Source: Pelagomonas calceolata (taxonomy: Eukaryota). Taken from it: a stretch of 64,000 nucleotides of DNA. Position numbers and translations under genes: made by a program. Shown one piece after another: positions 3,309-59,934 of the stretch (within the stretch, counting starts at the first letter, position 1; every line of letters begins with the position of its first letter). The notes under the pieces were generated by a model, which saw only the letters and a list, made by a program, of their open reading frames with translations, did no database searches and was not told the DNA's origin. Where the stretch lies: contig CAKKNE010000005.1 of NCBI GenBank assembly GCA_918797485.1, forward strand, positions 2,728,001 through 2,792,000, written 5' to 3'.

Positions 3309-3330
3309 CTAGCGGCCTGTAAGACACTAG
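3309..3330 (-). promoter_or_regulatory. 22-bp CTAG element (exact consensus)
   Basis: Reverse complement is CTAGTGTCTTACAGGCCGCTAG; lies in a divergent intergenic region. Confidence 0.7.
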
Positions 3331-3555
3331 GGAGCCAGCCTCTCGGCTCTCCTGGACATTGCCTGGCATAGAGCTGTGAATTTGTGCACTGATCGATATC
3401 GCAGTGCGCGCGCAGCAAGCAAACCGCAACCAATTCACAACAGTCAGCACGCGCGCGCCCACCGCCGCGCCTTAGCTAGCGACTGCAAAGCTCAAGACCA
3501 CTCACAGCACGCGTGCCCTCGGCGCGCCCTAAGCAATCAAGGCTGCACAAAAAAA

Positions 3556-6500
3556 ATGTCAGCGAAAGCAGTAAGAGAACACTACGGCAAGACCTTACTG
3601 GCTCGTCATTTAAGTGAGCACGGCGTCAATGTGGACGCCCGCGGCTTCCTCGTGCGGACCGACGTAAAAGAAGCGTCGAGCGAGCACACCTGGACTAATT
3701 TATTAGACGAGAACCCCTGGGCCAAGACCACGAAACTCGTCGCGAAGCCCGACCAGTTGATCAAGAGGAGGGGCAAGGCCGGTTTAGTATATGTCAACAA
3801 GACGATAAGTGAAGTGCAAGGCTGGGTGGACAGCAAGTTAGGCCAAACTGTCACAGTAGATAACGTCGAGGGCATCTTGCACACGTTTCTGGTGGAGCCC
3901 TTCGTTCCTCATCAACAAGAAGACGAGTTTTATGTGGCTATCACTTCAGATAGAGAAGGTGAGACGTTGCTGTTTTGCCGGGACGGCGGCGTGGACGTCG
4001 GCGACGTCGACGCCAAGGCGTCTCGATTAAAGTGCGGTTTGGACAACACGCCTACCCTACAAGAACTAGAACTATTTGTGCAAGACGCACCGGTAACTCG
4101 ACGGAAGCAACTCGCCCAATTCTATGGCGCTTTGTTAAAGTGCTACAGGGACCTCCACTTCACTCTGTTAGAAATTAACCCCTTGGTCGTCGACGACGAG
4201 AAGGTAACACCGCTAGATCTGGCCGCGAAGATCGACGAAACCGCGCACTTCCTCTGCCAGAGCAAGTGGGGCCCGACCGATTTACCCGCGCCGTTTGGTA
4301 GGCCCGAGTTCCCGGAAGAGGCCTATATTCGCTCGTTGGATGCCAAGACCGGTGCTTCATTAAAACTAACAATCTTAAATGTGACTGGTCGAGTGTGGAC
4401 GCTCGTCGCGGGTGGTGGGGCTTCTGTGGTCTACGCCGATACGATATGTGACCTGGGTTTTGCGCATGAATTGGCGAACTACGGGGAATATTCCGGTGCA
4501 CCAACAGATGAACAGACCTTCAATTATGCCAGAACCGTGCTAGGCTTGATGACGCGTACGCGCAGGGACGACGGCAAAGTACTCATAGTAGGCGGCGGCA
4601 TCGCGAACTTTACGGATGTGGCCGCTACTTTTCGTGGGTTGGTCAAAGCTCTCAAAATGTACCGTGATGAGTTGTTAGCTGGAAATATCAAGATATATAT
4701 CAGAAGGGCGGGCCCGAACTACCAGGAGGGCCTCAAGATGATGTTGAAATTGAGGCAGGAGTCCGGGCTATTTATACGGGTGTTTGGGCCGGAGCAGGAC
4801 GCCGTGAGCGTCTGCCCCTTGGCCCTCGGTCTCGTCCCGGAGGACTCGTTGCAGGACTTCGATCCTGATAGGAGAGAAGTGAAGGTCGACGAAAAGGCCA
4901 AAGTACAACCTCCTCCAGTACCTGGTTCACCGGTGCCGCGCTCGCCGCAACGGACCTTCTCGGCCGGCTCGCTGTCGTCTTTATCACTGGACGCCATGAG
5001 CCAGACGCAGTTCTCTGATAAAACTAGATGTATTGTGTACGGGCTGCAAGCTAGGGCGGTGCAGGGCATGCTGGACTTCGACTTCATGTGTAAGCGGAAG
5101 AAGCCGTCGGTCGCGGCGATGGTCTACCCGTTCCAAGGGGCTCATTATTCCAAGTTCTACTGGGGCACGGAGGAGACGTTGGTGCCCGTGTATCCTTCCT
5201 TACAACAAGCTTGTAGTAAACATCAGGACGCGTCGGTGTTGGTTAACTTCGCGTCGTACCGAAGCGTGTACGATACGTGTATCGATGCGTTTGACCATCC
5301 CCAGTTACGAACATTAGCTATCATCGCCGAAGGCGTGCCGGAGAGGCAGACCAGGGAGATCATCGCGAGAGCCGCAGAAAAGCAGGTGGCGTTAATAGGC
5401 CCAGCAACGGTAGGCGGCATCAAGCCAGGCTGTTTCCGGATCGGGAACACGGGCGGCATGCTCGACAACATCGTGCTGTCGAAATTATATAGACCTGGGT
5501 CTGTCGGTTATGTTTCTAAGAGCGGTGGCATGTCGAACGAACTCAACAATATTATCTGCAAGAATTCGGACGGCGTCTGTGAAGGTGTGGCCATCGGCGG
5601 CGACGCCTATCCCGGGAGTCGCTTTGTCGACCACTTACTACGATACGAAAACAATGAAGACTGCAAGATTTTAGTTTTATTAGGTGAAGTAGGTGGTGCG
5701 GACGAGTACGACGTCTGCGAAGCGATTACGTCCGGTCGCATCACGAAACCATTGATAGCGTGGTGCATCGGGACGTGTGCTTCGGCTTTTAGTTTTGAGG
5801 TGCAATTCGGCCATGCGGGCGCTTGTGCCCGCGGCCGCGGGGAAGATGCTCGTTCTAAGAATCAAGCTTTACTACAAGCGGGCGCCGTCGTCCCTCGGTC
5901 ATTTGCGGAGTTCGGCGATGCTATCAAGAAGGTCTACGAGGGATTGGTAACAAAAGGTACTATCATACCTAAGCCCGAACCGGACATCCCGAGGGTACCC
6001 CTCGACTACACGTGGGCTAAGAGGTTAGGAATGGTTAGGAAGCCGGCCAATTTTATCTCTACCATATCAGATGATCGAGGGGAAGAGCTCAAGTACGCTG
6101 GCGTTCCCATCTCTGAAGTCTTTGCCGAGAACTTAGGTGTGGGCGGCGTGCTATGCTTACTATGGTTCAAGAAGCGACTACCAGCTTATGCTACTAAATT
6201 TGTAGAAATGGTGCTCATGGTGACCGCGGACCACGGCCCAGCAGTAGCAGGTGCCCACAACACTATTGTGGCGGCACGAGCCGGCAAGGACTTGGTGTCG
6301 TCATTAGCGTCCGGGTTACTCACGGTAGGACCTCGCTTCGGCGGCGCCCTCGATGGAGCGGCTCGCATGATGACCGACGCCCTGGATCGGGGCATCTCTC
6401 CATTAGATTTCGTGACCGAGTGCAAGAAGAAGAACAAGTTGATCATGGGTATTGGTCATAGAATAAAATCGCTGGAGAACCCTGATAAACGAGTTTCGAT

Positions 6501-6831
6501 TATTAAAGAGTATGCTCTACAACATTTCCCGAAGACGCCTACCCTCAACTTCGCTCTACAAGTGGAACAGATAACAACTCAAAAAAGATCGAACCTCATA
6601 CTGAATGTCGATGGCTGCATCGCCGTTTGTTTTGTCGATCTTCTTAGACATTGTGGGGCGATGAGCGTGGAGGAGGCCGACGAACTTATTGGAGATGGGT
6701 GTCTGAACGGGCTCTTTGTCTTAGGTCGGTCGATCGGGTTCATTGGGCATCATTTAGATCAGAAGCGCCTGAAGCAGCCGTTGTATCGGCACCCGTGGGA
6801 CGACATCTCGTACATCTCCGACGACCTCTGA
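3556..6831 (+). CDS. ACLY: ATP-citrate lyase, single-chain (fused beta and alpha subunits)
   Basis: MSAKAVREH..KPDQLIKRRGK, AGGGASVVY, catalytic FGHAGA, ADHGPAVAG, C-terminal YRHPWDDISY. ATG at 3556. Confidence 0.97.
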   Translation: MSAKAVREHYGKTLLARHLSEHGVNVDARGFLVRTDVKEASSEHTWTNLLDENPWAKTTKLVAKPDQLIKRRGKAGLVYVNKTISEVQGWVDSKLGQTVTVDNVEGILHTFLVEPFVPHQQEDEFYVAITSDREGETLLFCRDGGVDVGDVDAKASRLKCGLDNTPTLQELELFVQDAPVTRRKQLAQFYGALLKCYRDLHFTLLEINPLVVDDEKVTPLDLAAKIDETAHFLCQSKWGPTDLPAPFGRPEFPEEAYIRSLDAKTGASLKLTILNVTGRVWTLVAGGGASVVYADTICDLGFAHELANYGEYSGAPTDEQTFNYARTVLGLMTRTRRDDGKVLIVGGGIANFTDVAATFRGLVKALKMYRDELLAGNIKIYIRRAGPNYQEGLKMMLKLRQESGLFIRVFGPEQDAVSVCPLALGLVPEDSLQDFDPDRREVKVDEKAKVQPPPVPGSPVPRSPQRTFSAGSLSSLSLDAMSQTQFSDKTRCIVYGLQARAVQGMLDFDFMCKRKKPSVAAMVYPFQGAHYSKFYWGTEETLVPVYPSLQQACSKHQDASVLVNFASYRSVYDTCIDAFDHPQLRTLAIIAEGVPERQTREIIARAAEKQVALIGPATVGGIKPGCFRIGNTGGMLDNIVLSKLYRPGSVGYVSKSGGMSNELNNIICKNSDGVCEGVAIGGDAYPGSRFVDHLLRYENNEDCKILVLLGEVGGADEYDVCEAITSGRITKPLIAWCIGTCASAFSFEVQFGHAGACARGRGEDARSKNQALLQAGAVVPRSFAEFGDAIKKVYEGLVTKGTIIPKPEPDIPRVPLDYTWAKRLGMVRKPANFISTISDDRGEELKYAGVPISEVFAENLGVGGVLCLLWFKKRLPAYATKFVEMVLMVTADHGPAVAGAHNTIVAARAGKDLVSSLASGLLTVGPRFGGALDGAARMMTDALDRGISPLDFVTECKKKNKLIMGIGHRIKSLENPDKRVSIIKEYALQHFPKTPTLNFALQVEQITTQKRSNLILNVDGCIAVCFVDLLRHCGAMSVEEADELIGDGCLNGLFVLGRSIGFIGHHLDQKRLKQPLYRHPWDDISYISDDL

Positions 6832-6908
6832 TATGAGGCTAAGTGATCCGTGTATTTATTTATTTGGGTAGGGTGCCTCGATGGCGTAATCCACGAGCTC
6901 CCAATTCA

Positions 6909-6930
6909 CTAGTATCTTACAGGCCGCTAG
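6909..6930 (+). promoter_or_regulatory. 22-bp CTAG element (1 mismatch)
   Basis: CTAGTATCTTACAGGCCGCTAG, 159 bp before ATG 7089. Confidence 0.7.
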
Positions 6931-7088
6931 CTGATTGCGAGTGCAGCGCCGCAGATCAGCGCATTTATTGCAATCAACTCGGTGCAGCCGTGATAACAAC
7001 GATTTTTAGTCTCTCTACTGGTCCGACGTCAATCGCTGCCAGTCCAGGCGCCGCCAAAGGCGCACTGCACACTGCTGCACAGTGCAGC

Positions 7089-7939
7089 ATGGCTCGCCGC
7101 GCCCTCGCGGCCGCGGCGATTTTCACGAGGCAAGCGAGCGCCCTCGCCTACGACGCGCGCTTCCGCAGCAAGGTCGACGGCCTCGTGGCCCGACGGCGCG
7201 GCGACCTGTTGGTTGTTCTCGAGGACTGCACCGACCCAGCGAACGCTGCGAGCATCGCACGAGTCTGCGACGGCTTCGGCGTGCCGGAGCTGCTGTTCGT
7301 GACGTCGCGCGCGCCGGCGCCGAAGTTCGACCCCCGCGGCGAGGGGCTGCGGCGGCTCAGCGCGTCGGCGACGCAGTGGGTCAAGCTCACGTCCTATTCG
7401 TCGGTCGACGCCAGTGCATAAATCAAACCGTCGCGGCGCATCAGCTCAATTCAGCCAGCACAGTGCATCCGAATCACTGCTTTATTTGCGCACAGGTCGA
7501 CGCGTGCTACGACCGCCTCCGGCGCGACGGCTTCGCAAGTGCGGCGTGCGTCATGGACGAGGATGCGGTGTTGCTGCCGGCGACGGACGACGACCTCGCG
7601 CGCCGCGATTTACTCGGCGGCGGTCCGCTCGCGCTCTGGTTTGGCACGGAGAGTCGGGGTCTCTCGCCCGCCGCCGTGAGCGGCGCCGACCGCAAGGTGC
7701 TCATCCCGATGGTGGGACAAGTGGAGTCGTTTAACCTCGCCGCTGCCGCGGCCATAATCGTCGCCGAGACGTGCCGGCTCGCCGGGCCCTCACAAATACC
7801 ACCACAAAAAAACCTCGCGGAGGACCTTTTGGAGCAACACTCATCCTGGCACGAGCCGCAGCGGCGCCTGCGACGACGAACGGCAGCCGCGGCGCGCGGC
7901 GAGATATTTAGACAAAGGCGGCGGGCGGATGCTGGCTAA
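7089..7939 (+). CDS. SpoU/TrmH-family RNA 2'-O-methyltransferase, 2 exons (7089-7403, 7496-7939)
   Basis: VVLEDCTDPANAASIARVCDGFG in exon 1; LWFGTESRGLS and IPMVGQVESFNLAAA in exon 2. Removing the phase-0 intron joins the two frames. Confidence 0.9.
7404..7495 (+). mobile_element. Introner-type intron with perfect 8-bp TSD
   Basis: GTCGACGC at 7404-7411 and 7496-7503; element CAGTGCATAAATCA...TTTATTTGCGCACAG; GT-AG. Confidence 0.88.
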
Positions 7940-7961
7940 TTTGTATTGTTAAAACCGACAC

Positions 7962-8999
7962 CTAGGACGGCGACGACTCCTCGGGCGGCGACGTGTGCCA
8001 CGTGACGTCGTCGGGCACGTCGCGGCAAACTTTGGTTCCTTTCGCTCCACTCATCAGCTCGGCGGCGTCGTTCAAATCCCCGATGATGGCCCACGCGCCC
8101 GGCTTCGAACTGCCTTCGACGAAAGAAATGGCGGCGCTGATCTTGGGGCCCATGCTGCCCGGGAACTTCTGGCCCGTCTTCCTCGCTTTGAGGTACTTCG
8201 GCGTGACGGCCTTCATTTCTCTTCCATCAGGCTTGCCGAAGTTGTGCCAGATACCTCCGCCATCCGTCAAAATAATAAACCCATCAGCCTCGAGTTCGCG
8301 CGCCATCAATGCGCCTGTAGCGTCCTTGTCCACCACAGCTTCGACGCCGACGACGTCCCCGAACACACGAGAGACCGGAGCGCCGCCGCCGCCGCCCGCG
8401 ACGACCAGTCCTGGATAGTTGTTCTCGAGCAACGTCCGAGCCGCATCCAGCTGCAACACCGCAATGGGCTTGGGAGACGCCACAACCCTCCTATAATATT
8501 CGCCGTCCTGCTTGATGGTCCAATCTAACTGATTGGCCAGAGCTTCGGCCTCCTTGAAGCCGTAGACGGGTCCCACATACTTGGTAGGGTTATCGAAGGC
8601 CTTGTCGCCGGCATCCACAGCCGTTTGGGTGACGATGCACGCCGCATCGACACCCGCACTCTGGAACGCCTGGGCTAGGACGTATCCAATTTGACCTTGA
8701 GACTCGGCGCCCAAGACATCAAACGTGGCTGCAGATCTCTCTAAAGCTAACTCACCAACTTGCGGCCCATTCCCATGCGTGAGTAACACTTGATGGCCCG
8801 CCTGGCGCAATGCTAGGATGGAGGGCACCATTTGTTTTGCGGCTTTTAACATGTTTTCGATGGTCAGCCGGTCGCCTCGCCGCTGCAGGGCGTTGCCTCC
8901 TACTGCCACAACAATGCGTTGCGGCGGCACTGACGGTGTGGCGTCATCACTTAACAAGCGTACGGTGCGTCTTGTTCTCCTCGCGAGGCGGGCCAGCAT
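7962..8999 (-). CDS. arcC: Carbamate kinase with mitochondrial-type presequence
   Basis: IVVAVGGNAL, THGNGPQVG, PTKYVGP, RRVVASPKP, EAVVDKD, GSMGPKI; Arg-rich N-terminus. Confidence 0.92.
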   Translation of the reverse strand: MLARLARRTRRTVRLLSDDATPSVPPQRIVVAVGGNALQRRGDRLTIENMLKAAKQMVPSILALRQAGHQVLLTHGNGPQVGELALERSAATFDVLGAESQGQIGYVLAQAFQSAGVDAACIVTQTAVDAGDKAFDNPTKYVGPVYGFKEAEALANQLDWTIKQDGEYYRRVVASPKPIAVLQLDAARTLLENNYPGLVVAGGGGGAPVSRVFGDVVGVEAVVDKDATGALMARELEADGFIILTDGGGIWHNFGKPDGREMKAVTPKYLKARKTGQKFPGSMGPKISAAISFVEGSSKPGAWAIIGDLNDAAELMSGAKGTKVCRDVPDDVTWHTSPPEESSPS

Positions 9000-9464
9000 C
9001 TTGTTGTACTTGCTCTCCCTAACTACTCTTTGTGCTTCCTTGCGAATCTGCTACTTTTGCAGCAATGTTTGCAGACCGTATTGGTTTCGCGTGTTGTTGC
9101 AGGCAACGCGTGGGGCGTTTGCACTGCCTCGCCGGCGGCACTCAAATGGCTTAAAAGAGAGCAATTGCTAAAGTTGCTAAAATCACAACTCGCCAGAGCT
9201 CCTGCCGCGGCAACCACCGCGTAGAGCGCTATGAACGGCTCCGCTTTCAAGCCCGCCCCGCCACGCAGCGCGTCTCAGCAAGGAGGCGCAGCGGCATTGC
9301 GTACACCCACTTTGCTACGGTGCTGTGCGGACCGGCTGCCCACCGTACGCCGCGAAACGATAGGCAGGCACCGCCGGCCGGCGGTGGAGCACGCTTTCGC
9401 CGGCGCGCGCGCGGTAGACACAAGGCCCAGCAGCCCCAAAAGGCGCACGCAGCGCTGCCGCATC

Positions 9465-11957
9465 ATGGCGCCGTGGAGCCTCAAGACCGTCGCGAAGCGC
9501 CTCATGGGCGAGGAAGAGCAGCGCGTCGTCCCCGTCAACGAGCGGCGGACAAAGCGCACCTCGGAGACGAACCTCCTCGCCACGATGGGCCAGGAGGCGC
9601 CCGCGGACCTGTTGCGGAAGCTCCGGGGCCAGAAGCTGTCCCAGAAAGTTTTAGATGAGAAGCTCCTGGAAGTGATCATCAAGCTCGACGCCCTGGGCGC
9701 GAGCGGCGAGGACGTCGTGGGATGGGAGTCGAACATCGAGGGCATGGACCTGGACCACGAACGGCGGTCGGTCCTGGCGGAGCGGGCGCCGCCGTCGCGA
9801 GACATGGCCACGTCGCCCACAGCGCCCTTGGATGACGACTCGGCATCAACGTCGCGCACGTCGTCGTTCGAACGAAGGGCTTCTTTCGAGGACCTCGACG
9901 CGGCGCGCGTGAAGCATCTGATACGGCCTCGACGCGTCTCGCCTCTGTCGAGGCCGCCGGCGCCGGCCCCCGAGACGATCGTGGATCCCATCGAGGCCCT
10001 GGCGCGGTCCTCGGCCTCAAGGGCCAAAGATGCAAGGAGGCGGTCGCGCGCCTCGCGGTCCGATTTGGGGTCGTCCATGGGCTCGCGGCCGTCGACGGCC
10101 GAGCGGGAGCCGGGCGACCACCTTCCACTGAAGCCGCGCCGGTCGGTTGGTGAAGAGGAAGATGAATTTAATGCATCATTGTGGGACGCCGCCGCGCTCG
10201 GGAGGATCGATCTCGTGGATCAAGCCTTGAAGCACTTGACGGTGGACGCGCCGGACTATGATACACGAACGGCTTTGCACTACGCGGCCGCGGAAGGCTA
10301 CGCGGACGTGTGCGAACATCTGTTGAGGAAGGGCGCGGAGAGTTCACCCTTGGATCGGTATGGAAATACGCCGCTCGGCGTCGCTTTACGGAACCAGCGG
10401 GATGACGTCGTTGCGGTATTACGAAAACATGGCGCGAAGGTGGGCGACACGCAATTGAATACGCCGCAGTCGTCACAAAGGCACCAGCAGCTCCTCGTGG
10501 CCGCGGCTTCTGGAAGTTTGGCGGATTGTCGGACGTTGGTTGCCGCTGGGGTGAGATGCGACCTGGGCGACTGCGACAAACGAACGGCCCTACACCTCGC
10601 GGCGAAGCACGGCCATTTAGATGTGGTGACGTGGTTGGTGGATTCCGCCGGCGCGGACGCCGCGACGCAAGACCGGTGGGGCAATTCTGCGCTGGACGAC
10701 GCCGTGCGGTTCTCTCAGAGAGAATGCGCGGAGTTCCTCGAAAAACGAGGCGCTCGATTGCGGGGTTCCCTGAATGAATGGAAAGTGCCGTCCTTATCTA
10801 AGAGTGTGGACAAAGCTAGGAAGCGTTGTGAGAGGATGGTGGGCTCCTGGGACGATACCGATGTACTAGCGCTGGAGAAAGCCTCGGAGGGCCACTCGTT
10901 ACTAATACTGGGCGAGGCTATTATTGGAAGAGATTCAAATGTCGACACGACGAATCTGCGGAACTTTTTACTAAGGATCGAAGGCGACTACGGGGATAAC
11001 CCGTACCACGGCTCGTTCCACGGCGCGGACGTGCTGCTGACGACGCACAACTTCCTCGCGACTCAAAACCTGCTGAGGCACTTGACAACGGTCGATTTAC
11101 TAGCTGGCTACGTCGCGGCCGCGGTCCACGATTATGCGCACCCCGGGACGAACAACGCGCACGAGCGCGTGGCGTCCTCCGAGCTCGCTATAAGGTACTC
11201 GGACGACACGATCCTCGAGAGGCACCACTGCGCCGCCGCCTTTTCCGTATTACGGGAGCCGCGCTTCGACGTGTTCAGTCATTTGACGACAGATGAGAGG
11301 AAGCAAGCTAGAGCGCTCGTGATCGAACTGATCCTCATGACCGACCTCGCGAGGCACGGCGAATTCATCGCAAGGCGCCTGAAACCTCTACTCCCGCGCG
11401 GCTTCAAGGCCAACAAAGAATCACAAGACTGGCAGAGCCCCTTCCACGACCAAGATCCGCCTTTTTTGTTAACTGTCGCAGTCAAGTTCGCAGATATAGG
11501 ACATGTCACCAAGCCCTTCGAGCTGCATCGCCAGTGGACGCAGCGCGCGACGGAGGAGTTCTGGCGGCTCGGCGACAAGGAGAAGGCTCTAGGTATGTCC
11601 GTCTCACCCTTATGCGACCGAGACAAGGACACGGACATTGCTCGCAGCCAAATCGGCTTCTTCAAGTTCGTGTGTCTGCCCTTCTACAAGCCCGTCTTTG
11701 ACTTGGTAAATCCGGACATGGCGCCGGCCATAAACTGTCGGGACAACTTCTGGAGGTGGCTAAATCAAAAAGACGCGCGTGAAAAGGATAGTAATGGGGG
11801 GAACCGGTCGCCGCCGCCCTTGGTGCGGGCTCCTACAACGTTGGCGGCTCCGCCTCGTTTGAAGCGTCGCGCGTCCGTCGCCGTCTCGACAATGAGTTTG
11901 ATGCGGCGCCTCTCGGGCGGCCGGCCGCCGCGGCCCACCGCCCTCGCTTCTACTTAG
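9465..11957 (+). CDS. Ankyrin-repeat class I cyclic-nucleotide phosphodiesterase
   Basis: Ankyrin repeats (RTALHYAAAEG, RTALHLAAKHG) followed by PDEase motifs NPYH..FHGADV, HDYAHPG, LERHH, ADIGH, EEF..LGDKE, SQIGF. Confidence 0.9.
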   Translation: MAPWSLKTVAKRLMGEEEQRVVPVNERRTKRTSETNLLATMGQEAPADLLRKLRGQKLSQKVLDEKLLEVIIKLDALGASGEDVVGWESNIEGMDLDHERRSVLAERAPPSRDMATSPTAPLDDDSASTSRTSSFERRASFEDLDAARVKHLIRPRRVSPLSRPPAPAPETIVDPIEALARSSASRAKDARRRSRASRSDLGSSMGSRPSTAEREPGDHLPLKPRRSVGEEEDEFNASLWDAAALGRIDLVDQALKHLTVDAPDYDTRTALHYAAAEGYADVCEHLLRKGAESSPLDRYGNTPLGVALRNQRDDVVAVLRKHGAKVGDTQLNTPQSSQRHQQLLVAAASGSLADCRTLVAAGVRCDLGDCDKRTALHLAAKHGHLDVVTWLVDSAGADAATQDRWGNSALDDAVRFSQRECAEFLEKRGARLRGSLNEWKVPSLSKSVDKARKRCERMVGSWDDTDVLALEKASEGHSLLILGEAIIGRDSNVDTTNLRNFLLRIEGDYGDNPYHGSFHGADVLLTTHNFLATQNLLRHLTTVDLLAGYVAAAVHDYAHPGTNNAHERVASSELAIRYSDDTILERHHCAAAFSVLREPRFDVFSHLTTDERKQARALVIELILMTDLARHGEFIARRLKPLLPRGFKANKESQDWQSPFHDQDPPFLLTVAVKFADIGHVTKPFELHRQWTQRATEEFWRLGDKEKALGMSVSPLCDRDKDTDIARSQIGFFKFVCLPFYKPVFDLVNPDMAPAINCRDNFWRWLNQKDAREKDSNGGNRSPPPLVRAPTTLAAPPRLKRRASVAVSTMSLMRRLSGGRPPRPTALAST

Positions 11958-12022
11958 GACCCTATGTGTATATATATGAGTAAGATGGTACTGGTTATTT
12001 TCTTCGCGCGATCTGGGGATAG

Positions 12023-12044
12023 TGTTACGGTGCTAGGACTAGTG
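12023..12044 (+). repeat. Second 22-bp intergenic repeat TGTTACGGTGCTAGGACTAGTG (copy 1)
   Basis: Identical to 57705-57726. Confidence 0.75.
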
Positions 12045-12074
12045 GGCGGAGTCCCTGGGGGGATTACTTTGTTG

Positions 12075-12096
12075 CTAGTGTCTTACAGGCCGCTAG
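12075..12096 (+). promoter_or_regulatory. 22-bp CTAG element (exact)
   Basis: Exact consensus, 171 bp before ATG 12267. Confidence 0.7.
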
Positions 12097-12956: not shown

Positions 12957-12967
12957 CAATCCAAGAA

Positions 12968-15522: not shown

Positions 15523-15544
15523 CTAGTGTCTTACAGGCCGCTAG
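15523..15544 (+). promoter_or_regulatory. 22-bp CTAG element (exact)
   Basis: Exact consensus, 125 bp before ATG 15669. Confidence 0.7.
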
Positions 15545-17810: not shown

Positions 17811-17832
17811 CTAGTGCCTTACAGGCCGCTAG
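17811..17832 (+). promoter_or_regulatory. 22-bp CTAG element (1 mismatch)
   Basis: CTAGTGCCTTACAGGCCGCTAG, nearly equidistant (about 210 bp) from the divergent ATGs at 17600 and 18039. Confidence 0.7.
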
Positions 17833-20117: not shown

Positions 20118-20139
20118 CTAGTGTCTTACTGGACGCTAG
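20118..20139 (+). promoter_or_regulatory. 22-bp CTAG element (2 mismatches)
   Basis: CTAGTGTCTTACTGGACGCTAG between divergent genes. Confidence 0.65.
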
Positions 20140-24325: not shown

Positions 24326-24347
24326 CTAGTATGTCTCGATACGCTAG
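24326..24347 (+). promoter_or_regulatory. Degenerate CTAG element (arms and length kept, spacer diverged)
   Basis: CTAGTATGTCTCGATACGCTAG, 135 bp before ATG 24482. Confidence 0.55.
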
Positions 24348-32558: not shown

Positions 32559-32580
32559 CTAGTGTCTTACAGGCCGCTAG
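32559..32580 (+). promoter_or_regulatory. 22-bp CTAG element (exact)
   Basis: Exact consensus between divergent genes. Confidence 0.7.
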
Positions 32581-37840: not shown

Positions 37841-37862
37841 CTAGCGGCTTGTAAGACACTAG
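37841..37862 (-). promoter_or_regulatory. 22-bp CTAG element (1 mismatch)
   Basis: Reverse complement is CTAGTGTCTTACAAGCCGCTAG; between divergent genes. Confidence 0.7.
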
Positions 37863-41193: not shown

Positions 41194-41215
41194 TTAGCGT
41201 AAAGTAAGATACTAG
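41194..41215 (-). promoter_or_regulatory. Degenerate CTAG element
   Basis: Reverse complement is CTAGTATCTTACTTTACGCTAA; between divergent genes. Confidence 0.55.
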
Positions 41216-51467: not shown

Positions 51468-51682
51468 GGCCTCCAGCTCCGCTCCGAGGAGCTCTGTTCC
51501 CGCAGGCCTGGACTACGGCAGCATCGGTGCTGCCTCCCGCCCTTTTATCACACCATCGGGCTGCCTCTCGTGGCTGGCTGGAGCGCCGAGCGCTGCCGAG
51601 CGCTGCAAAAATGAAAAAAAACGCACGGGTTTTGGCCGATACGTCTCGAGGACCACGAAACAGGACTACAAGCCAGGCATAC

Positions 51683-52705: not shown

Positions 52706-52884
52706 TTTTGCAGTGGCCCTTGTGTCTTGTGTGAGAGCTAATATGTGCCAAAGTCGGCTCGGCTTGGTCGAAATCGCTTGTACTCGCTGCGCGGCAACTT
52801 TAGTGTTCCGGAAACAAAAAGCGGACGCGACCGGATGAGCTCTACGACGATGCTTACAGCTCCTGCACCGTCCTGCTTTGCTTG

Positions 52885-52907
52885 CTAGTGTCTTTACAGG
52901 CCGCTAG
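52885..52907 (+). promoter_or_regulatory. CTAG element with 1-nt insertion
   Basis: CTAGTGTCTTTACAGGCCGCTAG between divergent genes. Confidence 0.7.
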
Positions 52908-53023
52908 CTCGGCGCGGGCTTGCTTGCTCCGAGTTCACCAAGAGCGCGCACAGGCTGCCCCAGGACCCTCACGAGTCTCAACACCACTCTCCGAGGTCGC
53001 CAGCCTTAGCCAATCAATCAGTC

Positions 53024-54541
53024 ATGTCCAGGCGCCGCTGGGACGACAGGCCACCCGCCGAGGTGTGCCCTCCCTTCCCCTTCCTGCGCCTGCTGCCGGA
53101 GATGCGGCGCGAGGTGCTCAAATTCGTCGTGAGCGTGTCGCCGAATCATGGCGCGCGGTTCTTTGTGCGGCAGGCGCGTGAAGAACACCCACGCGACCTG
53201 ATCGATACATATCATCGCCCCCTCGAGGGCATGGACCACCTCCGCGCGGGAAGCGCTACGTGCACGCACTGGAGCACAAGTTCGTGCCTGACGACCGTCA
53301 TGCACCACACCCGCACGACGCGCACGGTCTGCTCGGCGATCCGAGGTGATATAGAGGCGCTGGAGGCGCCGCGGTCTCCGCTCGCGACGCCCCGCGTGTG
53401 GCTCTCGCACCTGTACGAGGTACCATCCGCGGCGGTGCGAGACATGAGTGGCCAGCAAGTGCTACGAGAGCTCCGCAAGCGCTCGCTTGCCGGTCGGCGC
53501 GCAAACCTTGTCGCCGAAATGCAATGGCGTCAAGACAAGCTCGTTGACGTAAATGGATCGCAGATGGAACGCGCGAAAATGGCTTCCGGAAAAAGGAATG
53601 CAGATCGACCGCGCAATTCCTACGAGCTTGTCGCGAAATGCCCTGCCTCGTGGAGCAAAAAACGAAAAGAAGCTGCGCTCGAGCTCGCACGCAACGCAAA
53701 GTTCAACTCATTTCGCACCCACTCCTCGTGGGCTCTTACCAAGGTTCGTACCCACGAGGAGCGTCACGCCGTCGCCCCCATCGACGCGTCGCTCCTAAGC
53801 TCGCTGGAGGCCTCGGCGTACGAGTCATTCTTGAGTTCACTCCGGCAGCAGACATGGACGGGATATGCGGAGTCTGTCACGCTCACGTACCAGAACAGAA
53901 CAAGCGACGGTGAAAGCGTGCCGGAACCGACTCCAGACGTCATCGACGAGGTCGGCCGCCGCGTCGCCGCCTTCTTCGGCACGACGACCATGGCTCAGCA
54001 ATCATGGATACAGCAATGGACTAACAAGGTGCACAACGACGAAGAGATGACCTGGGAACAGTACGAGGACGAATGCGAGTACTGGGAGGGGTACGAGGAT
54101 GACCCGGAGTACAAGGGCGAGCTCGACGACTACCACGACGCGGACCGGCCGCCCCTCACCCGATGGCAAGACGTCTTTACGATGGTTCGATCCAGGTCGC
54201 TCCGGGATGATGGAACCGAGCTAGCCCTCACGCGCGATCGATCACGAAATCCTAAGCTGCCAGTGGCAAAGATCGTTGCGACAGTTCACACTCTGCAAAT
54301 GCCGGCTGAAGAAAATGCCAGAGATAGACGTCGATGCATACTTTTCTCGGACGTCCGGTGCCTCGGTGGTCAAGGTCCGGTGATGCATCCCGAGGCTATG
54401 TCCAATTTTCATATTGGCGAACATCCTTGGTTCTCGCATAATCGCGATTCGTATCTGAACTCCGGCAAGCTGACGGTGTACTGGCGCGATATCTCGCAGT
54501 TCGGGCTCGAGATTGAAATCGCCTTCCCAGCCATCTCCTAG
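53024..54541 (+). CDS. Hypothetical protein with F-box-like N-terminus
   Basis: PFPFLRLLPEMRREVLKF; 505-aa ORF. Confidence 0.55.
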   Translation: MSRRRWDDRPPAEVCPPFPFLRLLPEMRREVLKFVVSVSPNHGARFFVRQAREEHPRDLIDTYHRPLEGMDHLRAGSATCTHWSTSSCLTTVMHHTRTTRTVCSAIRGDIEALEAPRSPLATPRVWLSHLYEVPSAAVRDMSGQQVLRELRKRSLAGRRANLVAEMQWRQDKLVDVNGSQMERAKMASGKRNADRPRNSYELVAKCPASWSKKRKEAALELARNAKFNSFRTHSSWALTKVRTHEERHAVAPIDASLLSSLEASAYESFLSSLRQQTWTGYAESVTLTYQNRTSDGESVPEPTPDVIDEVGRRVAAFFGTTTMAQQSWIQQWTNKVHNDEEMTWEQYEDECEYWEGYEDDPEYKGELDDYHDADRPPLTRWQDVFTMVRSRSLRDDGTELALTRDRSRNPKLPVAKIVATVHTLQMPAEENARDRRRCILFSDVRCLGGQGPVMHPEAMSNFHIGEHPWFSHNRDSYLNSGKLTVYWRDISQFGLEIEIAFPAIS

Positions 54542-54628
54542 GACTCTTCTATAGTTTGTTCATATTAACAGGAGCTTTGCGCAAGAGAGAGGGGAAGCGA
54601 TAGAGCGTTCGAGACGCTCTCGCGTTGC

Positions 54629-55816
54629 TCACGCGGCGGCGACGTCGGCTAGCGGCGGGCACACCGTCCCCCAGCCGAAGGGGTCCGGCTTTTCGCCGAA
54701 TTGAATCGCTCGGTAGTGGTTGTAGAGCGCCTCGACGCGCTCTATGCTCTCGTACCGGTGCACGGTGTTTTGATTAGTGATGCTTTTCACGCCCATCATC
54801 ACCACCGCGGTCCCACACCCGGCCACCTCGCGGAAGTCTCCTAGTTCGGCCACGTCCACCGGCCGTCGCTCGACCTTCATGCCGAACGCGTCCGACGCCG
54901 CGAGGTCCATGAGCATGTCATTTGTCGCACTCCTAAGAATGGTAGGCGAGTCGGGCGTCACGTACGTGTTATCCTTGATGCCGATGAAGTTCGACACGCT
55001 GAACTCTTCGATATATCGTTTTTCTTTGGGGTCGAGGTATAGCACCGTAGGGTAGCCCTCCGCTCTCGCGTCGATGGACACGCGGATATCCGAGCCGTAG
55101 TTGCCCGAGGCCTTGACGTGGCCCACGCCCTGCGGGGCGGCTCGATCCGCGTCGTGTGCGACTAGCACATCAATCGGCTGGAGGCCGCCCGCGTAGTATG
55201 AGGACACGGGCATCGCGAGGACACAAAAGTGGAATTGCGGCGCCGCCGACAAGCCTAACTGCGGCCCATGCCCAAAAATGTAGGGCCGCAGGTACAAAGC
55301 CCCGCCCGTGCCGTAGGGCGGGATATACGCCCGATTCGCGGCGACGCACCACTCGCACGCCCGGATAAACATCTCCGGCGGCACGGCGGGCATCATCATC
55401 CTTTCACAACCCTCCAACATCCGATGGGCGTTCGCCTGGATGTTCCACAGCCGCACGGAGCCGTCTTTGCAGTGGTGGGCCTTCGCGCCTTCGTAGACGC
55501 CCTGGCCGTAGTGGATCGCCGCGCTCATCACATGTAGTTTGAGGAAGGGCTCGGGCTCCCACTCGCCGTCGTCCCACTTGCCGTTGACCCACGTGTGCTT
55601 CACAAACCCATTCGTCTTCTGGAAGTCAAACCCTAAACGCGGCCAGTCGAGGCTCGCGGCGCCGACGTCGTCGAGGCCGTGCTGCGGCGGCGTCGTCGCG
55701 AAGGTCCGTGCCGGTGCCGTCGCGCGGCGCGTCTGGAGGCAGCGCGCCGCCGCCGCTCTCCGTCGCGCGGCGGCCCAGACGGACCGCCAGCGTATGCGCG
55801 TGGGGAAAACGGACAT
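54629..55816 (-). CDS. ilvE: Branched-chain amino acid aminotransferase
   Basis: HYGQGVYEGAKA, LYLRP, KASGNYG (PLP lysine), EEFSVSNF, GCGTAVV. Confidence 0.95.
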   Translation of the reverse strand: MSVFPTRIRWRSVWAAARRRAAAARCLQTRRATAPARTFATTPPQHGLDDVGAASLDWPRLGFDFQKTNGFVKHTWVNGKWDDGEWEPEPFLKLHVMSAAIHYGQGVYEGAKAHHCKDGSVRLWNIQANAHRMLEGCERMMMPAVPPEMFIRACEWCVAANRAYIPPYGTGGALYLRPYIFGHGPQLGLSAAPQFHFCVLAMPVSSYYAGGLQPIDVLVAHDADRAAPQGVGHVKASGNYGSDIRVSIDARAEGYPTVLYLDPKEKRYIEEFSVSNFIGIKDNTYVTPDSPTILRSATNDMLMDLAASDAFGMKVERRPVDVAELGDFREVAGCGTAVVMMGVKSITNQNTVHRYESIERVEALYNHYRAIQFGEKPDPFGWGTVCPPLADVAAA

Positions 55817-55942
55817 GTGTGCGATTGGTGCAGTGCCAAACTGCCTCTCTGCAGTGCCAAACTGCCTCTCTGGTGCCGCGAGCGGCGCAACCCTGCGGAC
55901 AGAGGCGTCACTCTTGCAGCCTGGGAGGCGATTGTTGCTGTG

Positions 55943-55965
55943 CTAGTGTGTGTCCTCCACGCTAG
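55943..55965 (+). promoter_or_regulatory. Degenerate CTAG element
   Basis: CTAGTGTGTGTCCTCCACGCTAG (arms intact, 11-nt spacer) between divergent genes. Confidence 0.5.
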
Positions 55966-56178
55966 CAATAGTCCTCCACACTCCCGGAGAGCTCCTCGCA
56001 GGCTGCCGCCTCCCCGAGACTTTCGCCTCGCAGCTCGACGACGACGGCTGGCCTAACGCAACGAGAGCGCCGACAATTGGAGCCGCCGCGCACGCCATCG
56101 GCGCGAGGGCAGCTTCCGGGCACATCTCCTGCACGACGCGAGACTGACCGCACGCCGCCGCCGCGGCCAACGGGCAGC

Positions 56179-57588
56179 ATGGCCGAAGCCAAGGAAGATG
56201 AGGGGGCAGCCCCCCCAGCCGAGTCCAAGATCAGTGAGGAGGAGCTCGCCGCCGTCGAGGAGCTAGCGGCAGCACATAAGTGGGTTTTAGGAGATGTCTT
56301 CACGAAGCAAGAGCTCGCGCAGCACGGCGTACGAACCGACGCGGCCGTCTGTGCGGTCCTACAACGATCTCCGTTCTTCGAGTTCTTCGCCCTACCGCCA
56401 CCGGAGGAGGCCAAGGTTGATCCGAACGAAGAGCAGTTCGACCCTGACCAAGTGGAACCCTTGAACGCCTTCAATTTCACGAGCGGCGACCTGAAGCTTA
56501 TGCTTGACGAAAGAGGCGTAGCTCCCAAGGGCTTCTTCAATGACGACGCTCGGACCTTACAAAAGCTCTTGGACGACGAGCATGCGACAAGAATAGCCGA
56601 GCTGCGGGCCGAGTTCAACGCGAGAGTCGCGAAAAAGAGACAAACGGAGTTCAGGCACAAGCACCGGCTGCAAGTCGTCAAAGGTATAAGGGAGGAGGCC
56701 GACGTCATTGTAGATGCGGGCGAGGACGGGGATTTGACGCAGCGATTGATGGAGCTCCATGAGCAGGCGCCTCAAGTGTTGAGTATTGCCGATGTGCTCA
56801 GAGCGTCACCAAATCCATCCGCGGCGGGTCGGTGCCTGGCCAAGGTGCTTTATAGTCGTGTTACTTCCATAATATCGTTGGATCTCAGTCGTGCTCGCTT
56901 GGATGATACGGCTTGCGCGTATGTGGCGCGAGCTTGTAGGGCGCCGGGCTCGGTCCTAGCTTCCTTGGATCTCGAGGGGAATGAGGCCGGTCCTAAAGCC
57001 TGTGAACAGTTAGCGGAGACCATTGCTCAAACTTCGTTGAAGGCGCTGAGCCTCGAGGGCAATAATCTAACGCAAGGTGGTGAAGACGGTTTCAAGGAAC
57101 TGTGTAGAGGGCTACGCTCCTCGTCATTAACGCGGCTGTCGCTGTGGCGGTGTAACCTGCCTCAATCATGCGGCCCATCGCTGGCCGAGGGCGTCGGTCC
57201 TTCACTCTTTCTCCTCGAGACTGGAGGGAATCTATTTCTTGAGAGAGATTTAGATGACATCGAGGATCGACTGCGGGCGAACCGTAATGATAGAGATCAG
57301 AAAGCGGAAGAAGCGCGGCTGCTGCGACGGCGGACGCGGAAAGAGCAAAAAGCCAAAGCTGCCGCCGATGCGTTGGCCGCAAAGCAACGCGACGTCGAGG
57401 AGTTCCTGGCGCGGCGCAAGCAGGAGCGCGCCGAAAAACGGGAGCAGGAGGCGAAGGAGAAGGCCGAGGCCGAGGCCCAGGCTCTGCTGGAGCGCGAGGC
57501 GCGCGAGAAGCAGCGTTTAAAGGAGGCCGCTTCGGGCAAGAAGGGCAAAAAGGGCAAGAAGGGGAAAAAGGGTAAGAAGAAGAAGTAG
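56179..57588 (+). CDS. RNI-like leucine-rich repeat protein with coiled-coil and Lys-rich tail
   Basis: IISLDLSRARL, LASLDLEGNEAG, LKALSLEGNNL, LTRLSLWRCNL. Confidence 0.8.
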   Translation: MAEAKEDEGAAPPAESKISEEELAAVEELAAAHKWVLGDVFTKQELAQHGVRTDAAVCAVLQRSPFFEFFALPPPEEAKVDPNEEQFDPDQVEPLNAFNFTSGDLKLMLDERGVAPKGFFNDDARTLQKLLDDEHATRIAELRAEFNARVAKKRQTEFRHKHRLQVVKGIREEADVIVDAGEDGDLTQRLMELHEQAPQVLSIADVLRASPNPSAAGRCLAKVLYSRVTSIISLDLSRARLDDTACAYVARACRAPGSVLASLDLEGNEAGPKACEQLAETIAQTSLKALSLEGNNLTQGGEDGFKELCRGLRSSSLTRLSLWRCNLPQSCGPSLAEGVGPSLFLLETGGNLFLERDLDDIEDRLRANRNDRDQKAEEARLLRRRTRKEQKAKAAADALAAKQRDVEEFLARRKQERAEKREQEAKEKAEAEAQALLEREAREKQRLKEAASGKKGKKGKKGKKGKKKK

Positions 57589-57704
57589 CCTATATCATCG
57601 CGCCGGCGGCGCCGGGAGTGAGCCTGGAGGGCATCTTGGGGTTTCGGGAGAGTGGGGGGCGCTCGTAGGGACTTTCATGTTACGGTGCCCCGACACGGAG
57701 TAAT

Positions 57705-57726
57705 TGTTACGGTGCTAGGACTAGTG
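57705..57726 (+). repeat. Second 22-bp intergenic repeat (copy 2; 11-bp partial copy at 57678-57688)
   Basis: Identical to 12023-12044. Confidence 0.75.
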
Positions 57727-57807
57727 CGACCCACAAAAGGCTCAGGCTAGTTACGTCGCGGGGTCCCCCGTACCCCTCCCGCTCCCCCCGGGCCCACCAA
57801 AAGATTT

Positions 57808-57827
57808 CTAGTGTCTCTCGCCGCTAG
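57808..57827 (+). promoter_or_regulatory. Shortened CTAG element
   Basis: CTAGTGTCTCTCGCCGCTAG, 197 bp before ATG 58024. Confidence 0.55.
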
Positions 57828-58023
57828 CTTAACTCGCCGCGCGCCTACCAGCCGCCGCGCTCGTCGTACACAGCTTCTGTGCACGCGCCGCTGTGCCCAC
57901 ACGTCCTTCGTGTAGCCACAGATCCGCCCGCGCCGCTCAGCGCTGTCTCGCAGTGCCTCCGCGAGCCGCCACCAATTTGGACGACCAGAGGGTCCTCGCC
58001 GCGCAGCGCGCGCCTAGTACAAA

Positions 58024-58806
58024 ATGGCCTCGACGGGCGCCGGCTACGACCTGAGCCCGACGACCTTCTCGCCGGACGGTAGAATATTTCAAGTAGAATA
58101 TGCCACAAAAGCGGTGGAGAACTCGGGCACCGTCGTTGGTATTAGGTGTGCTGATGGTGTAGTTTTAGGAGTGGAGAAGGTCATGTTGAGCAAGATGCTC
58201 CTACCGTCATCAAATAGAAGAGTGGCCGCCGTAGCCCCACATGCCGGCGTGGCCCAGGCCGGAAGTACGGCGGACGGCCGCCAGGTCGTCGCGCGCGCGA
58301 GGGACGAGTGCGACTCGTATGATGACACTTATGGTATTGAGATCCCGCCTTCCGTATTAGCGCAGCGGCTCGCGGAGTACGTGCACTATTTCACGATCCA
58401 TGGAGCATTGAGACCCTTCGGCGCGTCGACGATGATCGCCGCCTACGACGCGCGGAAGAAGACCCACGAGTTGTATGTCCTGGAGCCTACCGGAGTGTGT
58501 CTGCGCTATTTTGGGGCCGCCCTCGGCAAGGGCCGCCAGTCGGCCAAGAGCGAGATCGAGAAGCTCGACCTGACGAAGCTCACGTGCAGAGAAGCCCTGA
58601 AGGAGATCGCCAAGATGATTCATACGACGCACGACGACGCCAAGGACAAGCCCTTCATTCTGGAGTTCGCCTGGCTCTGCGAGGAGACGGAGTGGAAGTA
58701 CGGCCTCGTGCCCCAGGATCTTATCGACGAGGCGGACGCGTGGGCGAAGAAGGAGCTCGAGAGCGACGACGAGGACGACGACGGCGACGAGGAGATGGCG
58801 TCCTAG
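58024..58806 (+). CDS. PSMA3: 20S proteasome subunit alpha-7 (alpha type 3)
   Basis: MASTGAGYDLSPTTFSPDGRIFQVEYA, RPFG, GKGRQSAKSEIEKL, HDDAKDKPF, acidic tail. Confidence 0.96.
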   Translation: MASTGAGYDLSPTTFSPDGRIFQVEYATKAVENSGTVVGIRCADGVVLGVEKVMLSKMLLPSSNRRVAAVAPHAGVAQAGSTADGRQVVARARDECDSYDDTYGIEIPPSVLAQRLAEYVHYFTIHGALRPFGASTMIAAYDARKKTHELYVLEPTGVCLRYFGAALGKGRQSAKSEIEKLDLTKLTCREALKEIAKMIHTTHDDAKDKPFILEFAWLCEETEWKYGLVPQDLIDEADAWAKKELESDDEDDDGDEEMAS

Positions 58807-59123
58807 GTGTTTCCCATCCTGGTATTAATAGCGTATTTACTCGACCTTGAGTGCTCTTGCTTCCCTCATACGCCGTCCCTAGAGTGCGCTTGGGAAAACG
58901 CGCAAATGACACGTAAAACACGGCGTATTTACGTTGGACCGTTTCTCACGTACCTACCTACTGACCTACGCAACCGCAGGAACCTAGCCCGGGGGGGGGT
59001 CTCCTCGAGTCCAGTGCTCACGTAAAGAACGCCGTGCGTAAATCGCACCCTAGTACGCCGTCGCCCCGAGTGTTAGTCGGACAACTTGAACGGCGAGGGG
59101 GAGGTCAGGACTATTCCGTAAAC

Positions 59124-59729
59124 TTACGCGACCGGCTTGTCCTCCTCGAACCAGTACTCCTCGCCGTAGTCAAAACACAACTCCTCGCCCTCCTTGATGG
59201 GTCGCGTCGAGACGAACCAGACCCGCGGGCCCTGCGTGTAGCCCGAGTAGGCCAAGCTTTTCACTCTCAGATTCGCATCAGAAGAGTGGTTGATGAAGCG
59301 GCACCAGTTCGCGAACGCCGGGTCCTCCGCGTCCACATAAAGGTCGTCCTCCACCCTAAATATATAATCCCCGGACACGGTAATGCCCTTGAGTTGCCGC
59401 GACTTCCGCCACAACTTGTCCTTCCAGTCCATTTTCGACTTTTTGTACCGTACGTCGACCTCGGCCTGCGTGAGCTGCTCGCCCACGTAGTCCGCGATCG
59501 TGATGTCTTCGTCGAACGCTTTAGCTGCAAAGGCGCCGAAGCCCTTGCCCGGGCTACTTTTAACAATGATACCGGCCTCCTCGCAGCGTCCTTCATCGTC
59601 CAAGTCGGACGTGCGCAGGCGCTTCGGCAGTTTGCTGTAAAGCGGTTGCCGTCGTCGCACCGAGGCCGGCGTCGGCGCGAAGGCGTCGACGGCGAGCCCT
59701 GCGACCAGGAGGTGCAAGGTGCGGCGCAT
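59124..59729 (-). CDS. SET-domain lysine methyltransferase with bipartite plastid presequence
   Basis: GKGFGAFA, RFINHS, GEELCFDYG; N-terminus ...AVDA-FAP. Confidence 0.88.
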   Translation of the reverse strand: MRRTLHLLVAGLAVDAFAPTPASVRRRQPLYSKLPKRLRTSDLDDEGRCEEAGIIVKSSPGKGFGAFAAKAFDEDITIADYVGEQLTQAEVDVRYKKSKMDWKDKLWRKSRQLKGITVSGDYIFRVEDDLYVDAEDPAFANWCRFINHSSDANLRVKSLAYSGYTQGPRVWFVSTRPIKEGEELCFDYGEEYWFEEDKPVA

Positions 59730-59912
59730 TGTTGACGAGCTGCTGTGCACTGCTTGAAGGAGAGAGCACAGCCTAGGCTTCGACTCCAAGCTGCAAAAGC
59801 GGTCGCTAGGGGTACGATCTGTTAATTTGCAGCACGATTACGCAAGACTGACGGTTCACTTGCTTGCAACGAGGCTTGCAGCGCTGCAAAGTGAAATGAC
59901 GATCATCTGCTT

Positions 59913-59934
59913 CTAGTGTCTTACAGGCCGCTAG
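59913..59934 (+). promoter_or_regulatory. 22-bp CTAG element (exact)
   Basis: Exact consensus, 184 bp upstream of the minus-strand ATG at 59729. Confidence 0.7.

What the first reader, a model, noticed from the sequence alone, without database searches (positions are those of the whole stretch)
3309..59934. A 22-bp quasi-palindromic element marks most gene 5' regions
Seen: CTAGTGTCTTACAGGCCGCTAG or a variant at 3309(-), 6909, 12075, 15523, 17811, 20118, 24326, 32559, 37841(-), 41194(-), 52885, 55943, 57808 and 59913. There is exactly one copy per intergenic region, 93-226 bp from the nearest ATG; 8 are between divergent genes and 6 are upstream of a tandem gene. I saw none in CDS or in the convergent (3'-3') gaps. 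The arms CTAGTR and CGCTAG form an imperfect inverted repeat around a roughly 10-nt spacer and are better conserved than the spacer. The flanks are not shared, so it is not the end of a larger repeat. The genes served are functionally unrelated. Inference: a general, orientation-tolerant promoter or nucleosome-positioning site for a dimeric factor. It is unusually long for a eukaryotic cis-element and I do not recognise it. Alternatives are a footprint of a promoter-targeting transposon, or a recombination/replication site.
Basis: partly seen in the sequence, partly recalled or inferred. Interest (0 to 1): 0.9.

Follow-up and report, generated by a model that had tools for sequence, protein, structure and literature searches.

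The report
Two-way promoter element across Pelagomonas genes
A conserved 22-base DNA word lies in front of about two-thirds of the genes in this stretch of the abundant ocean alga Pelagomonas calceolata, facing either way, and likely acts as the landing site of an unknown protein that opens the promoter and starts transcription beside it.

Summary
All 14 copies lie at the stated coordinates (chance 0.15 per 64 kb), in 8 of 12 divergent, 6 of 9 tandem and 0 of 12 convergent gaps. The window is Pelagomonas calceolata (gene order of chromosome 5). The exact 22-mer also occurs in 120 marine metagenome loci: none of 109 non-redundant ones in predicted coding DNA, 63 gene starts against 24 gene ends nearby, starts on either side equally (31:32). 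Stranded RNA reads put 5' pile-ups 18-34 bp off the element at 4 of 8 copies (P 0.049; 8 of 10 with weaker contig ends). Arms are conserved; change is concentrated at positions 13-16. Best reading (0.62): an orientation-free core-promoter site for a probably dimeric factor. New here: its left CTAG is repeatedly hit by one fixed 6-bp insert with CTAG doubled, in both orientations (13 of 111 copies, still polymorphic), which looks like a transposon footprint, so a transposon origin or a passive-footprint reading stays open (0.2). No binding factor, chromatin data or mutation test. Ten paper searches found no description.

The parts
3309..3330 (-). element, consensus copy; divergent gap before ATP-citrate lyase
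   Evidence: RNA 5' pile-up at 3179 (130 bp off), RNA contig edge at 3351
6909..6930 (+). element, 1 mismatch; tandem gap before SpoU methylase
   Evidence: inside the laid stretch but no 5' end listed
12075..12096 (+). element, consensus copy; tandem gap
   Evidence: + strand RNA 5' pile-ups at 12118 and 12126
15523..15544 (+). element, consensus copy; tandem gap before NmrA gene
   Evidence: RNA 5' pile-ups at 15564 and 15578
17811..17832 (+). element, 1 mismatch; divergent gap homeobox-RING / ARPC2
   Evidence: RNA contig edge at 17817 overlaps it by 7 bp
20118..20139 (+). element, 2 mismatches; divergent gap PARG-like / MORN gene
   Evidence: - strand pile-up 20098-20100, + side contig edge 20157
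24326..24347 (+). element, diverged spacer; tandem gap
32559..32580 (+). element, consensus copy; divergent gap
37841..37862 (-). element, 1 mismatch; divergent gap
41194..41215 (-). element, diverged; divergent gap before Hsp70-like gene
   Evidence: pile-up 41070 (124 bp off), contig edge 41239
52885..52907 (+). element, 11-bp spacer; divergent gap
   Evidence: contig edge 52921
55943..55965 (+). element, 11-bp diverged spacer; divergent gap
   Evidence: pile-up 56076-56078 (111 bp off), contig edge 55891
57808..57827 (+). element, 8-bp spacer; tandem gap before proteasome alpha subunit
   Evidence: pile-up 57845
59913..59934 (+). element, consensus copy; upstream of the - strand SET gene
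   Evidence: - strand pile-up 59861, 52 bp off
12022..12062 (+). short dispersed repeat (family B) just before the element; carries a CTAG-GA-CTAG core
   Evidence: reads from other loci align here
57706..57790 (+). family B fragment followed by family D repeat, just before the element
   Evidence: multi-copy in contigs of run X11

Best explanation
The 22-bp word is a conserved DNA element in front of most genes here and likely works as an orientation-free core-promoter site: a sequence-specific, probably dimeric protein would bind the two CTAG-centred arms, keep the short gap free of nucleosomes and let RNA polymerase II start on either side. Shown: position, orientation freedom, conservation pattern, nearby RNA 5' ends, AT-richer surroundings. 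Inferred: protein binding, dimer, nucleosome depletion, causation. The open site would also explain why small insertions pile up next to it. How thousands of copies arose is open; birth from a TA-flanked transposon relic followed by domestication is the simplest guess.
For: 14 of 21 promoter gaps, 0 of 12 convergent gaps, 0 in coding DNA. 0 of 109 metagenome copies and 0 of 15 further unanchored copies in predicted coding DNA (65% coding away from the anchors); 63 gene starts vs 24 gene ends within 600 bp (P 3.5e-5); starts left 31, right 32. Raw-read RNA 5' pile-ups 18-22 bp from the edge at 4 of 8 copies (P 0.049 against uniform placement between element and ATG); 8 of 10 within 35 bp when contig edges are added (P 7e-4). 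In 13 unanchored inexact copies 3 mismatches fall in the 12 arm positions and 20 in the 10 spacer positions (P 4.6e-5), 17 at positions 13-16. Six homologous pairs 72-91% identical keep the exact 22-mer at the same place, while the first 30 bp beside it are the most diverged (21% vs 10% left, 11% vs 5% right). GC falls to 0.54-0.57 and A4/T4 runs rise about fourfold at the edges over 123 sites. No TATA box 15-45 bp before any of 12 pile-ups. Genes served are unrelated.
Against: No binding, chromatin or mutation data. Raw-read runs are one sample and not a 5'-capture library; the pile-up tables were truncated, several pile-ups lie inside coding DNA, and four copies have the pile-up 52-130 bp away; contig edges cannot show a start. 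The start-site context (7 of 12 at or one base after a pyrimidine-purine step) is what chance gives. 7 of 21 promoter gaps lack the element, yet several of their genes are expressed. Metagenome copies were picked for being exact, so their conservation in pairs is ascertained. Exact copies carry the TTG flank more often than variant copies (54 of 115 vs 4 of 24, P 0.006), which fits young-versus-old copies of a spreading element as well as strong-versus-weak sites. Lack in convergent gaps is not significant per base (P 0.052).
Confidence: 0.62

Rival explanations
1. The 22-mer is a footprint or minimal relic of a cut-and-paste transposon (IS630/Tc1 type, TA doubled inside CTAG) that inserts in open promoter DNA; it marks promoters without driving them, or is kept as the element's own landing site.
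For: It reads as a TA- or CTAG-flanked unit with imperfect inverted ends. A fixed insert (GGATGC or its reverse complement GCATCC) with CTAG doubled sits at the left CTAG in 13 of 111 exact copies (1.0 expected), never at the right end (0 of 109), and is present in L038 but absent in L003, which differ by only 2 substitutions in 3313 bp. All 14 strand-hits of that 10-mer in 283 kb (11 loci) adjoin an element. TTG-flank correlation suggests age structure. IS630/Tc1 elements double TA (passages of PMC2170065; its reference list names CTAG as the IS630 target, title only). The one transposase in the visible gene table is Tc1-like.
Against: Neutral decay would spread mismatches evenly; they avoid the arms. 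No empty site of the 22-mer itself was seen, though none could be searched without bias. TTG lies on one side only (51 of 110 left, CAA 5 of 109 right), unlike a symmetric target. No longer element or transposase beside any copy (38 of 84 neighbouring proteins had Pfam hits, none a transposase). One copy in two-thirds of promoter gaps is too even for passive scars.
Confidence: 0.2
2. The element is a cleavage or recombination site (site-specific nuclease, meiotic break or replication start) whose staggered cut at CTAG yields the doubled CTAG inserts and the raised divergence beside it; nearness to promoters is a by-product of tiny intergenic space.
For: Divergence peaks within 30 bp on both sides; inserts are confined to one CTAG; two locus pairs are homologous on one side of the element only (L034/L094, L095/L121).
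Against: Bias to gene starts over gene ends (63 vs 24) and RNA 5' ends at 18-34 bp; a density of one per 4.6 kb; a fixed 6-bp insert is not expected from plain repair. L121 looks chimeric.
Confidence: 0.1
3. It is an RNA-level signal: a relic spliced leader, a 5' UTR hairpin, a terminator or a small RNA.
For: Some reads from other loci run through a copy; in tandem gaps it lies 58-219 bp after a stop codon.
Against: No strand preference to the gene (31 vs 32); listed RNA 5' ends lie outside it; consensus copies fold no better than shuffles as DNA (z 0.12, -1.07, 0.86; one variant -4.2); no Rfam match; absent where two 3' ends meet.
Confidence: 0.04

Closest known systems
CGCG element (TCTCGCGAGA) of vertebrate TATA-less promoters (PMC6192621, passages read)
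   Same: Palindromic, orientation-free, within about 50 bp of starts on both strands, in nucleosome-depleted DNA of unrelated housekeeping genes.
   Different: 10 bp, CpG-centred, a minority of promoters, shown by reporter to drive transcription; ours is 22-26 bp, two arms plus a half-conserved spacer, in about two-thirds of promoter gaps, untested, no sequence likeness.
DRE/hDRE bound by DREF/ZBED1 (named in PMC6192621; transposase origin of the factor recalled, from no call)
   Same: Quasi-palindromic promoter element read by a factor of transposase descent: the model for a domesticated origin.
   Different: 8-10 bp; no BED-finger (PF02892) gene in the visible 88% of the P. calceolata table.
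ZNF143 SBS, REST RE1, yeast Abf1/Reb1 sites (recalled, from no call)
   Same: Long or bipartite sites; ZNF143 at bidirectional promoters; RE1 tolerates spacer change; yeast general factors open promoters.
   Different: Directional zinc-finger or Myb-type sites in other lineages; no sequence likeness tested; none is known to me to carry a recurring insertion scar.
IS630/Tc1/mariner footprints and TA-flanked miniature elements (PMC2170065 passages; Correia and RUP elements recalled)
   Same: TA doubling, CTAG context, short relics in intergenic DNA.
   Different: Only 14-16 bp between the doubled bases, too short for two transposase-binding ends (24 bp each in ISY100); arms conserved like a protein site.
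Pelagophyte introner elements (PMC9860276 passages; PMC9481584 supplement note 3)
   Same: Non-autonomous DNA elements of the same genome that favour nucleosome-free DNA.
   Different: Introners are 70-210 bp, spliced, inside genes, with other ends; the 22-mer shares none of this.

Membership tests
Bidirectional core-promoter element (CGCG/DRE-like working class) | Non-coding, enriched at gene starts | tested here: met
Bidirectional core-promoter element (CGCG/DRE-like working class) | No orientation preference to the gene | tested here: met
   31 vs 32
Bidirectional core-promoter element (CGCG/DRE-like working class) | Transcription starts within about 50 bp | tested here: inconclusive
   4 of 8 raw-read pile-ups within 35 bp, P 0.049; 8 of 10 with contig edges; no capped-end data
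Bidirectional core-promoter element (CGCG/DRE-like working class) | Protein footprint, nucleosome depletion, reporter activity | not testable with these tools
   only composition proxy
CGCG element / hDRE proper | The 10-bp CGCG or hDRE consensus | tested here: not met
   sequence differs from the consensus given in PMC6192621
IS630/Tc1/mariner miniature element or footprint | TA duplication around the unit | tested here: inconclusive
   22-mer and insert are both TA/CTAG-flanked; doubling is shown for the insert only
IS630/Tc1/mariner miniature element or footprint | Terminal inverted repeats long enough to bind transposase | tested here: not met
   arms 6-7 bp vs 24 bp in ISY100
IS630/Tc1/mariner miniature element or footprint | Empty orthologous sites and a matching autonomous element | tested here: inconclusive
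   none in 283 kb of loci chosen for carrying the element; no genome available
Introner element | Intragenic, spliced out at its ends | tested here: not met
   all copies intergenic; no splice joint at a copy
Relic spliced leader | Always in sense orientation before the gene | tested here: not met
Known structured RNA | Rfam match at gathering score | tested here: not met
   0 matches in the window

The most novel reading that the evidence does not exclude
A transposon-born 22-26 bp unit has become the main core-promoter signal of P. calceolata (about 7,000 copies if the window is typical), standing in for the TATA box, read by a domesticated IS630/Tc1-type protein, and still used as a precise landing site by a mobile element that leaves a 6-bp scar. 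The absence of TBP, polymerase II TFIIB and TFIIA from the visible 88% of the gene table would then reflect a rebuilt initiation machine.
Probability: 0.1. Interest if true: 0.92.

Novelty: new variant of a known kind. Interest (0 to 1): 0.72.

Why it matters
P. calceolata is among the most abundant ocean eukaryotes, and I found no account of its promoter grammar. A single long element at most gene starts would give an immediate handle for start-site annotation, for compact two-way expression tools, and for pulling down the factor. A site of this length at this share of promoters is unusual, and a fixed insertion scar at one base step of it makes the question of how transposons seed and exploit core promoters directly testable in natural populations.

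Tried and rejected
No whole genome is held and the metagenome records could not be opened further, so no genome-wide scan and no unbiased search for empty sites. Other pelagophytes could not be tested. Viruses: 0 exact matches; an arms-only pattern gave 121 stretches, 120 examined, best spacer match 5 of 10, i.e. chance; no viral contig with a relative of the proteasome gene. Prokaryotes: 1 match, L121, in a contig that mixes bacterial genes with a stretch 91% like metagenome locus L095, read as a chimera. Library adapter rejected: natural variants, orthologous positions, many data sets. A clock test on the insert beside exact copies was not decisive (P 0.11 with up to 2 mismatches, 6.5e-5 with up to 3, but nearly all changes lie in the outer CTAG). 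No periodic CG signal around the element was evident. k-mer search found introner ends and family B, no second general promoter word. No full-length element at the left CTAG. TBP/TFIIB could not be checked: terms absent from searched supplements of PMC12054182 and PMC13284251 (six files of the latter not searched) and no sequence route was found. A position-by-position count including copies with changed spacer length was not done. Three look-ups of earlier findings gave nothing.
Full report
Observation. Nine are within three mismatches of the consensus at window 12075-12096, against none in 100 shuffles. A scan for the two arms with a free spacer returns exactly these 14, and 3 hits in 20 Markov sequences of equal length. 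With genes called from ORFs, Pfam and a codon model, the copies fall in 8 of 12 divergent, 6 of 9 tandem and 0 of 12 convergent gaps, 92-225 bp from the nearest ATG. The convergent gaps are short, so their emptiness is significant by count (P 1.6e-4) but not per base (P 0.052). The right-hand neighbour of the copy at 59913 is uncertain.

Organism. The closest named relatives of the proteasome subunit are pelagophytes. The order ATP-citrate lyase, homeobox-RING, ARPC2, TIGR02452, condensin matches genes Pca_5p15020, 15100, 15110, 15120 and 15360 of Pelagomonas calceolata (rows of supplement 4 of PMC9481584). No whole genome was available. One copy per 4.6 kb would give about 7,000 in 32 Mb (size); this is an extrapolation from one window.

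Independent loci. The exact 22-mer gave 120 marine metagenome loci, the scan stopping at its limit with about 2,200 stretches estimated; none in viral contigs; one in prokaryotic genomes, in an apparently chimeric contig. Of 10 neighbouring proteins looked up, 8 were in the collection and 5 of those clusters listed a member named P. calceolata. After dropping 11 loci as homologous duplicates, 0 of 109 anchored copies and 0 of 15 further copies lay in predicted coding DNA; within 600 bp there were 63 gene starts and 24 gene ends; starts lay 31 times on the left and 32 on the right, median 173 bp away. For 31 loci no gene was called on either side. Of 18 copies with both neighbours near, 5 were divergent, 12 tandem and 1 convergent (L010). 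The gene model was trained on the window; 38 of 84 called neighbours had Pfam hits, of unrelated kinds.

RNA. Stranded poly(A) raw reads (four runs, one sample) and RNA contigs were laid on 2400-22300 and 40600-60500, covering 11 of 14 copies; 10 had a listed 5' end. Raw-read pile-ups lie 22 and 30 bp (12075), 20 and 34 bp (15523), 18-20 bp (20118, minus strand) and 18 bp (57808) from the element's edge, but 52, 111, 124 and 130 bp at four others: 4 of 8 within 35 bp, P 0.049 against uniform placement between element and ATG. Adding contig edges gives 8 of 10, P 7e-4, but contigs cannot show a start. Tables were truncated, some pile-ups lie within coding DNA, and one (14861) is in a gap without the element. 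No TATA box lies 15-45 bp before any of 12 pile-ups; their base context is no better than chance. This is suggestive, not proof.

Anatomy and conservation. Among 118 distinct exact copies TTG precedes the element (T 76%, T 64%, G 67%) and C follows (89%), so the unit is about 26 bp. In 13 unanchored copies with 1-5 mismatches, 3 changes fall in the arms and 20 in the spacer, 17 of them at positions 13-16; copies with changed spacer length are outside that count. Six homologous pairs of 72-91% identity share the exact element in place, and the first 30 bp beside it are the most diverged (48 of 228 vs 47 of 482 left; 21 of 184 vs 18 of 358 right; two one-sided pairs dropped); these pairs were picked for being exact. 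Over 123 sites GC drops to 0.54-0.57 at the edges from 0.63-0.68 at 200-300 bp, CG steps drop and A4/T4 runs rise, as expected of nucleosome-poor DNA. The consensus is no better a hairpin than its shuffles and matches no Rfam family.

The left CTAG is often doubled around one fixed insert, GGATGC or its reverse complement GCATCC: 13 of 111 exact copies within three mismatches, 1.0 expected, none at the right end, and every hit of the 10-mer in 283 kb (14 strand-hits, 11 loci) adjoins an element. L038 has it and L003 lacks it, though they differ by 2 substitutions in 3313 bp. Two other short CTAG-flanked inserts occur (L029, L059), and three short repeat families cluster within about 200 bp of copies, one fused into the element in L029. 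This is what excision scars of a site-targeted DNA transposon look like (inference). IS630/Tc1 elements double TA (passages of PMC2170065) and a cited title names CTAG as the IS630 target; the only transposase in the visible gene table is Tc1-like (the file is cut after 91 genes of chromosome 6). Exact copies carry TTG more often than variant ones (54 of 115 vs 4 of 24), which allows either an age structure or graded site strength.

Mechanism. Most likely (0.62) a sequence-specific, probably dimeric factor binds the two arms, keeps the gap open and lets polymerase II start beside it in either direction; the open site draws insertions. Position, symmetry, conservation and nearby RNA ends are shown; binding, nucleosome loss and causation are inferred. 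Rivals: passive or selfish transposon relic (0.2), cleavage or recombination site (0.1), RNA-level signal (0.04).

Known or new. It works like the vertebrate CGCG element (passages of PMC6192621) and, from recall only, DRE/DREF, ZNF143 and yeast general-factor sites, but is a member of none by sequence. Ten searches of the held library found no description (with the sequence itself gave 0 papers). In the main texts of PMC9481584 and bioRxiv 10.1101/2024.10.30.620910 the words motif and promoter do not occur (term search and passages). Not seen: subscription papers, the preprint's supplements, picture pages and file 5 of the PMC9481584 supplements. I rate it a new variant of a known kind, interest 0.72.

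Noticed in passing
PMC9481584 supplement 4 (not in window): The visible gene table (chromosomes 1-5 plus 91 genes of chromosome 6, about 88%) lists TAF1/5/6/7/9/13, TFIIE/F/H and BRF1 but no TBP, no polymerase II TFIIB and no TFIIA. They may lie on the unseen part of chromosome 6.
   Followed up: partly
window 12022-12062 and 57706-57790; L029, L047, L058, L069, L070, L106, L108: Short dispersed repeats (families B and D) in intergenic DNA, mostly within 200 bp of the element; a third family (C) follows it in L007, L010, L059, L065, L103.
   Followed up: partly
window 7403-7495, 17231-17371, 18546-18620, 24890-25023, 47228-47314: Introns, most with introner-like inverted ends; splicing seen in reads for 7403, 17231 and 47228, the one at 17231 with a GC donor on the minus strand.
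   Followed up: no
window 44017-46303: The + strand ion-channel ORF (44205-46289) is covered mainly by an abundant minus-strand RNA (44017 to about 45699) and a short + strand RNA ending at 46301; its 5' part looks missing.
   Followed up: no
window 19973-20020: A 48-bp intron near the start of the PARG-like gene, spliced in a minority of reads.
   Followed up: no
L010 2800-3022: The one convergent-gap copy; it lies beside degenerate telomere-like repeats and a family C repeat.
   Followed up: no
L003, about 60 bp before the exact copy: A broken copy with a much longer spacer next to an intact one, suggesting local turnover; also a 12-bp duplication polymorphism against L038.
   Followed up: partly
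L121 1-3500: A bacterial genome bin's contig holds a Pelagomonas-like stretch with the element: probable chimera.
   Followed up: partly
window 14821-14838: The element-free divergent gap has a cluster of three CTAG 24 bp before an RNA 5' pile-up at 14861: possibly rearranged half-sites.
   Followed up: no
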